Shown here: positions 17,267 through 36,681 of the stretch, in pieces | Position numbering within the stretch: position 1 is the stretch's first letter | Layout: every line of letters starts with the position of its first letter | Sequence record: OR352953.1 | DNA: 64,000 nucleotides | Source of the DNA: Escherichia phage AV123 | Strand: one strand, 5' to 3' | The notes under the pieces: generated by a model | Databases searched by the model: none | What the model saw: only the letters and a program-made list of their open reading frames with translations | What the model was told of the DNA's origin: nothing | Translations under genes and position numbers: made by a program

Positions 17267-17902
17267 ATGGGAATACCATTTGATTTAAAACTTGATGGTT
17301 CTAACGATTTAGTAATGGTGGATGGTGATTTAACACTAACCACAACTAAAAGTGAAATTGCAGCACAGACGCTTGGAATAACACTTAGAACTTTCCGTGG
17401 AGAATGGTTCCTCAATTCTAATTTTGGGGTTCCATATCTGCAAGAGATTATTGGTGTTGCCAAGAAGAAAGAGATTGTTGATCGCATTTTCTTATCAACT
17501 ATCGCAAGTAATGTTTATATAGATAATATCAATTCCTATACATCCTCTTATGATAGAGATGATAGGTATTACTCAATGAACGTTACTGTTACAGTTGGTG
17601 AACAAGTTGTTAGTGCTCTATTCAGTACACAGCCGTCTGAAGAATACATCTATCCAGAAGCTGGTGATGATAATGCAGCAATCACTTGTGAAGCATTTGA
17701 AATTGTTGAATCTGCAAATAGACTCTATCGCTTTATTAACATTGTTGGTCTTCCTAAAGATACTTATTCTACTTGGTGGAATGAGTGGTCTAACGAGGCA
17801 TTGCTTGAAAAATACCTTGTTAACGAAGCCAATAAAGGTCTTGCAACCAATTACAATTATGCTATAACAGCAACAATGGGAGCTACAAATAATAATGGCT
17901 GA
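17267..17902 (+). CDS. baseplate wedge protein (gp25/W-like, putative)
   Basis: QTLGITLRTFRGEWFLNSNFGVPYL resembles the gp25/GPW family pattern (..GE....P.FG..L). RBS GGAGG. Confidence 0.45.
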   Translation: MGIPFDLKLDGSNDLVMVDGDLTLTTTKSEIAAQTLGITLRTFRGEWFLNSNFGVPYLQEIIGVAKKKEIVDRIFLSTIASNVYIDNINSYTSSYDRDDRYYSMNVTVTVGEQVVSALFSTQPSEEYIYPEAGDDNAAITCEAFEIVESANRLYRFINIVGLPKDTYSTWWNEWSNEALLEKYLVNEANKGLATNYNYAITATMGATNNNG

Positions 17903-18368
17903 TTTAACTACAATCAAGGTGTCTGATCTACCTGTAACAACATCTGTTTCAGACACAGATTATTTTGTAACAGATCAATCAGGCATCACTAAGAAAACAT
18001 CATTACGTGTTCTTCTTGCGGGTGCTGGTGTTACACGAAATCGTCTTTCTGCAAGGGGTACTGTCACAAATACCCTAGCTTTAGATATTAGCACGGCAGA
18101 GTATTTCTCTGCCACTTTATCTAGTCCAACTTGCAGTATTTCATTTAGTAATGTTCCAGTTACAACTAACATTGTTCAAAACTTTACTCTATCTCTACGT
18201 CAAGGTAGTGGAGCAAATAAAGTAACGTGGCCTCAATCTGTTAAATGGAGTTTTGGTCGCGCTCCTGTTTTGAGTTATAAACAGGGAGCTACAGATATTT
18301 TTGAATTTGTTAGTTATGATAATGGAGCTACCTGGATAGGTAGTTTAGTGATGGCAGGAGTGATTTAA
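17895..18368 (+). CDS. tail fibre/tailspike N-terminal anchor-type protein (adaptor, putative)
   Basis: 157 aa. N-terminus MADLTTIKVSDLPVTTSVSDTDYFVTDQSGITKKTSLRVLL shares a motif (D.hV.DQ....K.S/T) with the N-termini of the 23421 tailspike and the 25875 small ORF. Confidence 0.45.
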   Translation: MADLTTIKVSDLPVTTSVSDTDYFVTDQSGITKKTSLRVLLAGAGVTRNRLSARGTVTNTLALDISTAEYFSATLSSPTCSISFSNVPVTTNIVQNFTLSLRQGSGANKVTWPQSVKWSFGRAPVLSYKQGATDIFEFVSYDNGATWIGSLVMAGVI

Positions 18369-34783: not shown

Positions 34784-34794
34784 AAGGAGATTAA

Positions 34795-36681
34795 ATGTAT
34801 CCTATTCCTTTATTTATGTCAACAACATCAGCTTCAGTAGTAACAGCTACATCTATAACTACTTCCTCTATTGGTATTGCAATAGTTGGTGGTAAAAAAC
34901 AACTGACATACACAGTTACACCGGAAGATGGTGCATTATTTGATATAGCTTTTTCATCTTCAGATGATACCAAAATGGTTATAGATAATAATGGTATGAT
35001 GGAGTTTGTTGCCGAAGGTGGTTTTGATGCAATAATGACAGCTAAAAATAATTTAGGTGCTGTCTTAACTGATCAATCTGGTGGTTATGCTTCAGAATTA
35101 AGTGTGTACACTGAAAGTCTATCGGCTATGGATGTAGGCACTACTCAACAGTTGGTTGCTACAATCCGTCCAGAAGGTGCTAAAGACCTTCCAGACATGG
35201 TAATTACATACACCACAACAGATCCAGAAGTAGCTACTGTAAGCTCTACAGGATTAATAACTGCTCTTAAAGATGGCAATTGCCGTATAGGTTGTACTGC
35301 AACGTATCAAGGAACAGTTGTGGCCTCTGATAGTTCTTATTTAGGTGTTAATGCTATTCCTGTTATTTCTAATGTAACAGCCGTGGCAAACAGTTATGGA
35401 GACGTTCGTGTTGCTTGGGATGTAACTGATCCGCTAGATGGTGATACTTATACTGTAGAAGTATTAGATTTAAGTGATAATAGTGTCCAGTGGACTACAA
35501 CAACCACAAATACTTACGCCTACTTTGATATCTCTGACTCTATTCCTCTTTATGGGTTTGCTCCAACATACCTTAAAATTAGCGTTAAGAGCACCAAAGC
35601 AGCAGCCGTTATCTTTAATAGCTCAATAGCTACAGATGATTCATTCATTAAAGAAGTTATTGTCTTTGCTGGACAAGATAACGTAAATGCACACTTTACA
35701 GAACTATCTGGCGCAAATAAAGCAGCAATGAGTAGCACAACAGCCCGTAATGCATATGCTACGCAACGTGGTTTAGCAAATGCTGAAGTTCTTCCGTTAA
35801 ATGCAGCTTCTGGATCATCAGCAGCAGATAAATATGCAGATGATAAAGCCGGAACAGGAACGCCAGACAACTACTGGTATGATCTGGATAACACAGCAGA
35901 TGGGCCATGCTTAACTAACTTTATCACTAAAGTCACACCTTATGCAAGTAAGGTTAAAGCAATTATTTGGGGACAAGGTGAAAATGATGCTGTATCAGCA
36001 TCTTCGACTGTTGCAGGTAGGTACAGTAACACTACACGTTACCATGATGCTACGATAGCTATCTTTGATAAGATGCGTACAATAGTTCCTGCTTCTCAAG
36101 CAAAAATTGTTTGGCAGATCCTAGGACGTTCTTATTTATATGGTGTAGAAGTTAATGGTGTGGATTGGCAGAAGTACAGAAATGTACAAAGAACCATCTC
36201 TACAGCACGTGATGATGTTATCATTGGTTCTTGGGTAGATGGTGCTGAACGTTACAGTGGTTATGTTTATGAAGAAGGTATTGATGGTCGTATCCATTAT
36301 ATTTCTTCTGTATACCAAACAGCAGCTACAAAACTTGCTAAATCGGCAGCAGACGGTACAGACTTAACATCAGCGTCACCTGTTTGGGTTGATATGTCTG
36401 TTCCAACAGGAGGAGCCGCTGTAAGACAAGCTAACCAAGATGCAATTATCTCTTGGGAACCAGCAGGATATACTAAACATTACTTCCGAAATGTAAACGT
36501 CCTCACAGCAGCAATTCTTACAGAACAAACCCTGGATACTAACACTTACACATTTACTTATGCAGATCAGGTTGAACAATATGGATTTGCAGCAGGTACA
36601 ACAGCGTTTGATGTTGCACACTATGATGCTGATAATGACGTGTTATCACCTCTTGTCAGATTTACAGTCAATGTTACATAA
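34795..36681 (+). CDS. virion-associated protein with Ig-like (Big_2-type) domains and a C-terminal SASA/SGNH-like esterase-like domain
   Basis: Big_2-like segments (e.g. TTQQLVATIRPEGAKDLPDMVITYTTTDPEVATVSSTGLITALKDGNCRIGCTA). C-terminal motifs FAGQDNVNAHF and IIWGQGENDA resemble the GQSN and WYQGESN motifs of sialate-O-acetylesterase-like enzymes, but the usual Ser is Asp here. Confidence 0.4.
   Translation: MYPIPLFMSTTSASVVTATSITTSSIGIAIVGGKKQLTYTVTPEDGALFDIAFSSSDDTKMVIDNNGMMEFVAEGGFDAIMTAKNNLGAVLTDQSGGYASELSVYTESLSAMDVGTTQQLVATIRPEGAKDLPDMVITYTTTDPEVATVSSTGLITALKDGNCRIGCTATYQGTVVASDSSYLGVNAIPVISNVTAVANSYGDVRVAWDVTDPLDGDTYTVEVLDLSDNSVQWTTTTTNTYAYFDISDSIPLYGFAPTYLKISVKSTKAAAVIFNSSIATDDSFIKEVIVFAGQDNVNAHFTELSGANKAAMSSTTARNAYATQRGLANAEVLPLNAASGSSAADKYADDKAGTGTPDNYWYDLDNTADGPCLTNFITKVTPYASKVKAIIWGQGENDAVSASSTVAGRYSNTTRYHDATIAIFDKMRTIVPASQAKIVWQILGRSYLYGVEVNGVDWQKYRNVQRTISTARDDVIIGSWVDGAERYSGYVYEEGIDGRIHYISSVYQTAATKLAKSAADGTDLTSASPVWVDMSVPTGGAAVRQANQDAIISWEPAGYTKHYFRNVNVLTAAILTEQTLDTNTYTFTYADQVEQYGFAAGTTAFDVAHYDADNDVLSPLVRFTVNVT

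What the first reader, a model, noticed from the sequence alone, without database searches (positions are those of the whole stretch)
17895..36681. Multi-receptor-binding-protein arsenal (at least five large fibre/spike proteins, two with depolymerase-type beta-helix hallmarks)
Between the baseplate genes and the strand switch lie 18368-21244 (958 aa), 21253-23412 (719 aa, Calx-beta-like N-terminus), 23421-25616 and 30338-32752 (both with the GDGVTDD pectate-lyase-3-type hallmark of capsule/O-antigen depolymerases), 28443-29426 (fibre plus chaperone), 32794-34755 (collagen-like fibre) and 34795-36681 (Ig-like plus esterase-like). Such a branched set implies several glycan receptors or a broad capsular host range, and each enzymatic domain is a candidate polysaccharide depolymerase.
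Basis: partly seen in the sequence, partly recalled or inferred. Interest (0 to 1): 0.55.

Follow-up and report, generated by a model that had tools for sequence, protein, structure and literature searches.

The report
Phi92-like phage multi-receptor tail arsenal
This is the well-known "Swiss-army-knife" set of tail spikes and fibres of a phi92-like E. coli phage; almost every gene is 98-100% identical to published phages, so the finding is real and correctly read but ordinary.

Summary
The window is a Justusliebigvirus (phi92-like myophage), 96-99% identical in DNA to many deposited genomes. The locus is gene-for-gene syntenic with phi92 gp140-gp153, and all proteins but two are 98-100% identical to phi92: the spike in the gp143 slot and the fibre chaperone (81% to phi92, 99% to PaulScherrer). 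That is the "multivalent adsorption apparatus" described in 2012.

- 30338-32752 is the solved colanidase gp150.
- 21253-23412 is the N4 gp64/gp65-like fibre and carries the published NGR-glycan motif GMSHY.
- 28443-29426 plus 29436-29987 are the short fibre (cryo-EM fibre III) and its chaperone.
- 32794-34755 is the collagen-like gp151.
- 23421-25616 fills the hypervariable slot where phi92 has its endosialidase. Here it is a beta-helix spike, 99.7% identical to Phapecoctavirus AV125 and 49% identical to a Klebsiella podophage spike.

Three refinements. The 958-aa protein is predicted to be a globular (alpha/alpha)6 glycosidase-like protein, not a fibre. The "esterase-like" call rests only on a sub-threshold hit, with Asp at the presumed nucleophile position. 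Baseplate wedge genes are interleaved with the receptor-binding genes.

Verdict: already known; low interest.

The parts
17895..18368 (+). phi92 gp140 orthologue (157 aa), a small tail-fibre-family protein. It carries the N-terminal anchor peptide also found on the variable spike.
   Evidence: 100% aa identity to phi92 gp140. phrog_9017 'tail fiber protein' at E 1e-69. Anchor motif alignment.
18368..21244 (+). phi92 gp141 orthologue (958 aa). Predicted (alpha/alpha)6-barrel glycoside-hydrolase-like protein with CBM-like beta-sandwich inserts; conserved, not fibre-shaped.
21253..23412 (+). phi92 gp142 orthologue (719 aa): Calx-beta + NCTSP_N + TIM barrel, related to N4 gp64/gp65. Candidate binder or modifier of the NGR glycan.
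   Evidence: Pfam hits above cut-off. PDB 9lc0 gp64 at E 3e-27 and gp65 at E 1.6e-11. GMSHY at aa 338-342. Literature: PMC8594841, PMC8669472, bioRxiv 10.64898/2026.04.02.716166.
23421..25616 (+). Variable tailspike (731 aa) in the phi92 gp143 (endosialidase) slot: conserved anchor (aa 1-~150, including Tail_spike_N) plus a right-handed beta-helix receptor-binding and catalytic part with the GDGVTDD cap.
   Evidence: Pfam Tail_spike_N and Beta_helix. 99.7% nt identity to AV125 and 100% to cardinal; only the first ~440 nt are shared with other genus members. 49% aa identity over aa 127-728 to a Klebsiella podophage spike.
25629..25645 (+). Terminator-like hairpin immediately after the spike cassette.
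   Evidence: It lies in the 448-bp spacer that travels with the cassette.
25705..25733 (+). Perfect sigma-70 consensus (TTGACA-17-TATAAT) in the spacer.
   Evidence: the only 12/12 match in 20 kb. Sequence.
25875..26012 (+). 45-aa ORF consisting only of the N-terminal anchor motif. It is either a remnant of another spike gene or a stand-alone anchor peptide.
   Evidence: Annotated as hypothetical in AV125 and cardinal.
26065..26310 (+). phi92 gp144 orthologue (81 aa, annotated as a membrane protein in phi92).
26310..27797 (+). Baseplate wedge subunit (phi92 gp145, Baseplate_J), the docking platform for fibres I and III in phi92.
   Evidence: Pfam. 100% identity. Cryo-EM paper PMC13450770.
27800..28429 (+). 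Baseplate wedge subunit (phi92 gp146).
28443..29426 (+). Short tail fibre (phi92 gp147, cryo-EM 'fibre III'). Inferred terminal receptor is the LPS core.
   Evidence: 98% identity to phi92. N-terminus matches the phiTE short tail fibre in 9cuy. PMC13450770. PMC8594841.
29436..29987 (+). Tail fibre assembly chaperone (phi92 gp148, Caudo_TAP).
   Evidence: 81% identity to phi92 and 99% to PaulScherrer.
29997..30338 (+). phi92 gp149 orthologue (113 aa, annotated as a lipoprotein).
30338..32752 (+). Colanidase tailspike (phi92 gp150 orthologue), which degrades colanic acid.
   Evidence: PDB 6e0v at E = 0 over aa 180-804. 99% identity. phrog 'colanic acid degradation'. WcaM homology at E 1.5e-28. 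Activity reported for phi92 gp150 (PMC13450770).
32794..34755 (+). Collagen-like tail fibre (phi92 gp151 orthologue): Tail_spike_N anchor, four G-X-Y runs and a fibritin-C-like segment. Receptor unknown.
34795..36681 (+). Intact short form (628 aa) of phi92 gp152+gp153: Big_2 Ig-like domains plus an N4 gp65-like alpha/beta domain and a C-terminal beta domain.
36685..36708 (.). Bidirectional terminator hairpin at the strand switch that closes the structural operon.

Best explanation
The interval is the host-recognition module of a phi92-like (Justusliebigvirus) myophage. It is a late operon that interleaves baseplate wedge genes with seven large tail proteins and one small one, which are displayed together on the baseplate.

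What is shown. The locus is orthologous to phi92 gp140-gp153, and all but one protein is close to identical to a published counterpart. One protein is the colanidase, for which a structure is solved. One is the short fibre that has been mapped by cryo-EM as fibre III.

What is inferred.
- The gp142-like N4 gp64/gp65-type protein engages the NGR exopolysaccharide on rough hosts.
- The colanidase cuts through colanic acid.
- The 731-aa beta-helix spike, sitting on a conserved anchor of about 150 aa in a hypervariable cassette slot, recognises and probably cleaves one strain-specific O-antigen or capsule.
- The Mu-GpS-like short fibre then binds the LPS core and triggers contraction.
- The gp141-like (alpha/alpha)6 protein, the collagen-like fibre and the gp152/153-like protein are accessory glycan-binding or glycan-processing modules of unknown target.
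- Host range is retuned mainly by swapping the receptor-binding part of the cassette spike between phages.
For: - 96-99% nt identity over 85-89% of the interval to more than 50 Justusliebigvirus genomes.
- Gene-for-gene synteny with phi92 gp134-gp153, with 98-100% aa identity for every protein except the slot spike and the chaperone.
- gp150 has a solved structure, matched at E = 0, and reported colanic-acid hydrolase activity (PMC13450770).
- gp147 is fibre III, and the gp145/gp146 wedge is the docking site.
- The 719-aa protein has NCTSP_N and TIM-barrel_NCTSP domains and matches N4 gp64/gp65. It contains the published NGR k-mer GMSHY. phi92-like phages need wecB/nfrB, which means NGR (PMC8669472).
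- Beta_helix (E 2.5e-21) and Tail_spike_N in the 731-aa protein.
- Slot behaviour: only about 440 nt of anchor are shared within the genus; 37 cluster representatives share the anchor but fall into 34 unrelated C-terminal clusters.
- The same receptor-binding part sits on a T7-type anchor in a Klebsiella podophage at 49% identity, and is 99.7% identical in another genus (AV125).
Against: - There is no virion proteomics or activity data for this particular phage.
- The newest phi92 cryo-EM study could not assign fibre II. It does not mention gp141, gp142 or gp152/153, so their place on the virion is unproven.
- phi92 itself carries a 224-nt frameshifting deletion in the gp152/153 gene and is still infectious, so that protein is dispensable at least on some hosts.
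- The target of the 731-aa spike is unknown.
- The esterase-like domain lacks a recognisable Ser nucleophile.
Confidence: 0.9

Rival explanations
1. Only a minority of the proteins are true receptor-binding proteins: the cassette spike, the colanidase and the short fibre. On this reading the gp141-, gp142- and gp152/153-like proteins are conserved structural scaffolds or lectin-like decorations of the baseplate periphery. Their enzyme-like folds would be vestigial, so the 'arsenal' is smaller than it looks.
For: - gp141 homologues keep 44-57% identity across phages and prophages of Enterobacter, Pseudomonas, Stenotrophomonas, Gluconobacter and marine bacteria. They also occur in lambda-like sipho-prophages and fused to P2 gpI. 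That conservation is atypical of host-specific RBPs.
- The SASA hit is sub-threshold. The presumed nucleophile position is an invariant Asp, and the presumed block-V His is Gln in some homologues.
- phi92 tolerates a disrupted gp152/153.
- gp141 is predicted to be globular, not fibrous.
Against: - The gp142 type is the only component shared by NGR-dependent myophages and N4, and it carries the predictive GMSHY motif.
- gp141 has about 100 invariant positions, including many acidic and aromatic residues, as expected of a working sugar-binding or catalytic site.
- High conservation is also what is expected if the targets are conserved glycans, which is the argument made in PMC8594841.
Confidence: 0.3
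2. The locus is a capsule-specialist depolymerase battery, like the multi-depolymerase Klebsiella jumbo phages. Each large protein would target a different capsular type, giving a broad capsular host range.
For: - Two beta-helix spikes carry the GDGVTDD cap.
- The closest named relative of the 731-aa spike comes from a Klebsiella capsule phage.
- phi92 has a capsule endosialidase in the same slot.
Against: - Only one slot varies between genomes. The other proteins are 94-100% identical across phages isolated on different hosts, including unencapsulated K-12.
- The second beta-helix spike targets colanic acid, which is not a serotype-specific capsule.
- The rest match NGR-type or LPS-core-type modules.
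Confidence: 0.07
3. The ORFs are long by chance or encode non-structural proteins unrelated to host recognition.
For: None found.
Against: Strong matches to tail-protein families, to solved tail structures and to annotated tail genes of more than 100 phages.
Confidence: 0.01

Closest known systems
Escherichia phage phi92 multivalent adsorption apparatus, gp140-gp153 (Schwarzer et al. 2012 J Virol, title cited in PMC11984140; cryo-EM in PMC13450770)
   Same: Identical gene order. 98-100% aa identity for gp140, 141, 142, 145, 146, 147, 149, 150, 151 and gp153, and 96% for gp144. Same wedge, short fibre, chaperone and colanidase.
   Different: The gp143 slot holds a 731-aa beta-helix spike instead of the 918-aa endosialidase with its S74 chaperone domain. 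A 448-bp spacer with a terminator, a consensus promoter and a 45-aa ORF follows it, where phi92 has 48 nt. gp152 and gp153 form one intact 628-aa ORF here. The chaperone is only 81% identical.
Other Justusliebigvirus and Phapecoctavirus genomes: PaulScherrer/Bas60, cardinal, VEcB, muut, AV125
   Same: Same locus. Cardinal and AV125 carry the same spike allele at 100% and 99.7% nt identity. The short 628-aa form of the last gene is shared with muut, VEcB, PD06, Eryne and cardinal.
   Different: PaulScherrer, alia, KMB37 and BME3 have a different slot spike and a 939-aa long form of the last gene, with an extra C-terminal 311 aa. AV125 belongs to another genus, with about 75-87% aa identity elsewhere in the locus.
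Phage N4 non-contractile sheath gp65/gp64 (PDB 9lc0, 9yf4), the NGR/NfrA receptor-binding complex
   Same: The 719-aa protein shares NCTSP_N and the TIM barrel with gp64/gp65 and carries the GMSHY motif. The 628-aa protein shares the repeated alpha/beta plus beta unit of gp65.
   Different: These are myophage baseplate proteins, not a podophage sheath. The domains are split over two separate proteins and combined with Calx-beta or Big_2 domains. N4 gp65 has Ser where the 628-aa protein has Asp295.
Anchor/receptor-binding-domain modular tailspikes of Kuttervirus CBA120, Gamaleyavirus G7C and others (Tail_spike_N, PF18668; Pas et al. 2023, PMC10408124)
   Same: A Tail_spike_N domain occurs in the 731-aa and 653-aa proteins. 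A conserved anchor carries a swapped receptor-binding part, and a terminator-like motif lies downstream of the cassette.
   Different: A different virion context. Branching through XD-type adaptor domains was not tested here.
Tail spike of Klebsiella phage vB_Kpn_K16PH164C3 (P0131)
   Same: 49% identity and 66% similarity across the whole receptor-binding part, including GDGVTDD, the beta-helix and the C-terminal beta-sandwich.
   Different: It has a T7-type N-terminal anchor (Phage_T7_tail) on a podophage of about 40 kb. At 49% identity the substrate may differ.

Membership tests
phi92-type (Stephanstirmvirinae) multivalent adsorption locus | Synteny: TMP, tube initiator, plug, hub, spike, sheath initiator, gp140, gp141, gp142, variable spike, gp144, wedge gp145/gp146, short fibre, chaperone, gp149, colanidase, gp151, gp152/153, then strand switch | tested here: met
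phi92-type (Stephanstirmvirinae) multivalent adsorption locus | Genus-level nucleotide identity to Justusliebigvirus genomes | tested here: met
   96-99% identity over 85-89% of the interval in more than 50 records
phi92-type (Stephanstirmvirinae) multivalent adsorption locus | One hypervariable spike slot with a conserved N-terminal anchor | tested here: met
   also noted in PMC7552041
phi92-type (Stephanstirmvirinae) multivalent adsorption locus | Simultaneous display of the spikes and fibres on the baseplate | not testable with these tools
   Known for phi92 only, from cryo-EM; fibre II is still unassigned
Right-handed parallel beta-helix tailspike depolymerases | Beta-helix repeats above family threshold (731-aa protein) | tested here: met
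   PF13229 at 76.4 bits against 25.9; NosD at 38.3 against 23.6; TIGR03804
Right-handed parallel beta-helix tailspike depolymerases | Pectate-lyase-3-type N-cap motif GDGVTDD | tested here: met
   aa 166 (731-aa protein) and aa 241 (804-aa protein). The PF12708 hits themselves are sub-threshold: 17.6 and 14.2 bits against 27.
Right-handed parallel beta-helix tailspike depolymerases | Demonstrated glycan cleavage and trimeric assembly | not testable with these tools
   Activity is reported only for phi92 gp150, which is 99% identical to the 804-aa protein
N4 gp64/gp65-type NGR-recognition module | NCTSP_N and TIM-barrel_NCTSP domains above threshold | tested here: met
   75.1 and 275 bits against 27; PDB 9lc0
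N4 gp64/gp65-type NGR-recognition module | Conserved GMSHY k-mer reported as predictive of NGR use | tested here: met
   aa 338-342; bioRxiv 10.64898/2026.04.02.716166
N4 gp64/gp65-type NGR-recognition module | Infection depends on nfrB/wecB | not testable with these tools
   Shown for relatives (PMC8669472)
SGNH/SASA carbohydrate esterases (the 'esterase-like' claim for 34795-36681) | Family HMM above gathering score | tested here: not met
   PF03629 at 15.1 bits against 24.8, covering 64 residues only. A profile search of the PDB finds only N4 gp65.
SGNH/SASA carbohydrate esterases (the 'esterase-like' claim for 34795-36681) | Block-I Ser nucleophile and block-V His | tested here: inconclusive
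   FAGQ-D295-N aligns with FAGE-S-Q of N4 gp65. D295 is invariant, and H501 is Gln in two homologues. The block assignment was made by eye, and the AF2 model of this domain is low-confidence.
Collagen-like triple-helix fibres | G-X-Y repeats and Pfam Collagen above threshold | tested here: met
   Four runs of 6-9 triplets; 32.5 bits against 27.2
(alpha/alpha)6-barrel glycoside hydrolases (GH8, GH76, GH88, GH105-like), for 18368-21244 | Six-hairpin barrel fold | tested here: met
(alpha/alpha)6-barrel glycoside hydrolases (GH8, GH76, GH88, GH105-like), for 18368-21244 | Sequence membership of a GH family, or identified catalytic residues | tested here: not met
   No Pfam, NCBIfam or PDB sequence hit. 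7-13% identity to the fold matches. Catalytic residues were not mapped.

The most novel reading that the evidence does not exclude
The gp141-type protein (18368-21244) may be an uncharacterised, widely distributed tail-borne (alpha/alpha)6 glycosidase with CBM-like inserts that acts on a glycan conserved across Proteobacteria. Together with the gp142-type N4-like protein, to which it is fused in some phages, it may form the still-unassigned peripheral density ('fibre II' or the arm of fibre I) of phi92-like baseplates. Separately, the N4 gp65-like domain with Asp in place of the Ser nucleophile may be a lectin rather than an esterase.
Probability: 0.2. Interest if true: 0.45.

Novelty: already known. 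Interest (0 to 1): 0.15.

Why it matters
The system is useful but not new. Phi92-like phages are candidates for therapy and biocontrol because they combine several glycan-targeting tail proteins. Knowing which allele sits in the swappable slot predicts which smooth or encapsulated strains a given isolate can reach.

For this window, the practical content is that it carries the AV125/cardinal-type beta-helix spike instead of an endosialidase. It is therefore not expected to be a K1/K92 phage. It should retain the colanidase, NGR and LPS-core recognition modules.

The only open biology touched here concerns the conserved gp141, gp142 and gp152/153 proteins. Their role and position on the virion remain unsettled even in the 2026 phi92 structure.

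Tried and rejected
- The AF2 model of the 628-aa protein came from a shallow alignment of 10 sequences. It was poor (pLDDT 64) in exactly the domain of interest, so the esterase fold could not be confirmed. Foldseek and a profile search returned only N4 gp65.
- I tried to read Schwarzer et al. 2012 (PMC3457257) for virion proteomics, but it is not held. Statements about its content rest on citing papers and on my memory.
- I looked for literature on PDB 9LC0, on 6E0V and on the Klebsiella K16PH164C3 spike to obtain domain functions or substrates. Nothing useful turned up.
- I considered that the spacer at 25617-26064 might hide a remnant of the endosialidase C-terminal chaperone domain. I rejected this: the only similarity is an N-terminal anchor-like 45-aa ORF and the last 25 codons of a PaulScherrer ORF.
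- The promoter and terminator scan is not enriched over shuffles overall (73 found against 69 expected; 14 against 12). Only the single perfect promoter and the terminal hairpins are worth noting.
- No tRNAs were found in the window.
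Full report
**Observation.** The next genes lie on the - strand, and GC skew changes sign near 36.7 kb. A bidirectional terminator hairpin sits at 36685-36708. GDGVTDD occurs at aa 166 of the 731-aa protein and aa 241 of the 804-aa protein. The 653-aa protein has four G-X-Y runs.

- Calx-beta at the N-terminus of the 719-aa protein.
- Tail_spike_N plus Beta_helix in the 731-aa protein.
- Collagen plus Tail_spike_N in the 653-aa protein.
- Big_2 in the 628-aa protein.
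- Caudo_TAP in the ORF after the 327-aa fibre.

The only soft point is 'esterase-like', which rests on a sub-threshold SASA hit (E 0.017, 15.1 bits against 24.8).

**Identity of the locus.** Megablast of 17895-36681 finds 137 phage records. Of these, 51 cover at least 80% of the query, nearly all at 95-99% identity. They are Justusliebigvirus genomes such as PD114, PD06, PaulScherrer/Bas60, VEcB, alia and muut.

The phi92 RefSeq annotation maps one-to-one onto the window:
- 17895-18368 is gp140.
- 18368-21244 is gp141.
- 21253-23412 is gp142.
- 23421-25616 occupies the gp143 slot.
- 26065-26310 is gp144.
- 26310-28429 is the wedge, gp145/gp146.
- 28443-29426 is gp147.
- 29436-29987 is gp148.
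- 29997-30338 is gp149.
- 30338-32752 is gp150.
- 32794-34755 is gp151.
- 34795-36681 is gp152 plus gp153.

Amino-acid identity to phi92 is 98-100% for every protein except the slot spike (only aa 1-54 shared), gp144 (96%) and the chaperone (81% to phi92, 99% to PaulScherrer). The genes upstream are the tape measure, tube initiator, plug, hub, central spike and sheath initiator.

**What is already known about this system.** Phi92-like phages are described as carrying several co-expressed tailspikes and fibres, a 'nanosized Swiss army knife' (PMC11984140; PMC8594841; PMC10844046).
- The 2026 cryo-EM study places six copies each of three fibre types on the gp145/gp146 wedge. It assigns fibre III to gp147, infers that gp143 forms the tip of the L-shaped fibre I, and leaves fibre II unassigned.
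- gp150 is reported to hydrolyse colanic acid, and its structure is deposited (6e0v). The window protein matches it at E = 0 over aa 180-804 and also resembles host WcaM.
- Maffei et al. noted that a conserved lateral fibre shares a predicted deacetylase domain with N4 gp64.
- Sellner et al. showed that phi92-like phages depend on wecB and nfrB, which means on the NGR glycan rather than ECA.
- A 2026 preprint names phi92 gp142 as the NGR-binding protein and reports a perfectly conserved GMSHY motif.

I find NCTSP_N and TIM-barrel_NCTSP in the 719-aa protein, hits to N4 gp64 and gp65 in PDB 9lc0, and GMSHY at aa 338-342. Olsen et al. had already observed that different spikes occupy the gene-143 position in different genomes.

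**The variable slot.** Only the first ~440 nt of 23421-25616 are shared with most relatives.
- The full gene plus the 448-bp downstream spacer is 99.7% identical to Phapecoctavirus AV125, a different genus. It is 100% identical to the Justusliebigvirus 'cardinal' over the part that record contains.
- Among 90%-identity cluster representatives, 37 share the N-terminal anchor but fall into 34 unrelated C-terminal clusters. Their domain types include beta-helix, BNR sialidase, GDPD, SGNH and S74-chaperone.
- The receptor-binding part (aa 127-728) is 49% identical to the spike of Klebsiella podophage vB_Kpn_K16PH164C3, which carries it on a T7-type anchor.

This is textbook anchor/receptor-binding-domain modularity (PMC10408124). 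The substrate of this allele is unknown.

**New detail on the conserved proteins.**

(i) The 958-aa gp141 type has no Pfam, NCBIfam or PDB sequence match.
- An AF2 model built from 46 homologues is confident (pLDDT 86, pTM 0.82).
- Foldseek picks out CBM11/CBM22-like beta-sandwiches and no full-length match. The protein is therefore predicted to be globular and glycosidase-like, not a fibre.
- Its family is large and unusually conserved, at 44-57% identity in Enterobacter, Pseudomonas, Stenotrophomonas, Gluconobacter and marine bacteria.
- It occurs in a lambda-like sipho-prophage between the tail-tube-like gene and the tape measure.
- It is fused to P2 gpI after V-W-J in a P2-like prophage, and fused to a gp142-like NCTSP module in a 1557-aa protein.
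- From these fusions I infer that gp141 is anchored to the wedge and works with gp142.

(ii) The 628-aa protein is Ig-like at aa 20-250 (confident). It then resembles the repeated unit of N4 gp65.
- The position that aligns with the Ser of N4 'FAGESQ' is an invariant Asp ('FAGQDN'). The presumed block-V His is Gln in two homologues.
- The AF2 model is poor in this region. Membership of the esterase family is therefore not established.

**Mechanism (inferred).**
- On rough hosts, NGR is bound through gp142.
- On mucoid cells, the colanidase clears colanic acid.
- On particular smooth or encapsulated strains, the cassette spike binds and cleaves its polysaccharide.
- The Mu-GpS-like short fibre then engages the LPS outer core and triggers wedge expansion and sheath contraction, as described for phi92.

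Only orthology and domain content are shown here. Virion location, substrates and order of action are inferred.

**Verdict.** However, it is a near-identical copy of a system described in 2012 and revisited many times since, and even the variable allele is already in GenBank twice. Novelty is 'already known' and interest is low. The residual open question is the function and location of gp141, gp142 and gp152/153.

Noticed in passing
window 25617-26064: The 448-bp spacer that travels with the spike cassette is identical in AV125 and cardinal, whereas phi92 has only 48 nt here. It contains a terminator-like hairpin (25629-25645), the only perfect sigma-70 consensus in 20 kb (TTGACA-17-TATAAT, 25705-25733; about 0.04 expected from base composition by my arithmetic) and a 45-aa ORF (25875-26012). 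That ORF is nothing but the N-terminal anchor motif shared by gp140 and the slot spike.
   Followed up: partly
window 34795-36681; L006 23321-24983; L001 20487-23306: The last tail gene exists in three states. It is an intact 628-aa ORF here (as in muut, VEcB, PD06, cardinal and Eryne). It is a 939-aa long form with an extra C-terminal 311 aa in PaulScherrer, alia, KMB37 and BME3. In phi92 it is split into gp152 and gp153 by a 224-nt frameshifting deletion (window 35384-35603 is missing).
   Followed up: partly
window 40034-42613 (- strand); L006 28336-31650: The DNA polymerase here is 859 aa. phi92 and cardinal carry an extra in-frame 245-aa insertion at residue 577. It begins with Cys, ends in Gly-Asn and is followed by Cys, which looks intein-like. 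The window has the insert-free allele.
   Followed up: partly
L007 10001-12823; L009 8001-11294; proteins P0085, P0096: The gp141-type module is not confined to rV5- or phi92-like myophages. It sits after the tail-tube-like gene in a lambda-like Enterobacter/E. coli prophage. It is fused to P2 gpI in a P2-like prophage and fused to a gp142-like NCTSP TIM-barrel module in a 1557-aa protein.
   Followed up: partly
window 29436-29987: The fibre chaperone is only 81% identical to phi92 and KMB37 but 99% identical to PaulScherrer. The fibre it serves is 98-99% identical in all of them, so the chaperone has two alleles that are uncoupled from the bulk of the fibre.
   Followed up: no
hits H59-H61 (MG065639, MG065656, MG065689): Three GenBank records named 'Campylobacter phage' (A150, C3, A110a; 146,366 bp) are 98.9% identical to this E. 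coli phage locus. They are probably Justusliebigvirus genomes that were mislabelled or co-isolated.
   Followed up: no
window 30338-30715 and 28443-28660: The N-terminus of the colanidase (aa 12-126) matches the baseplate-embedded N-terminus of the phiTE long tail fibre. The N-terminus of the short fibre (aa 2-72) matches that of the phiTE short fibre (PDB 9cuy). This hints that both dock directly on the wedge.
   Followed up: partly
window 1-64000: ARAGORN found no tRNA genes in the whole window.
   Followed up: yes
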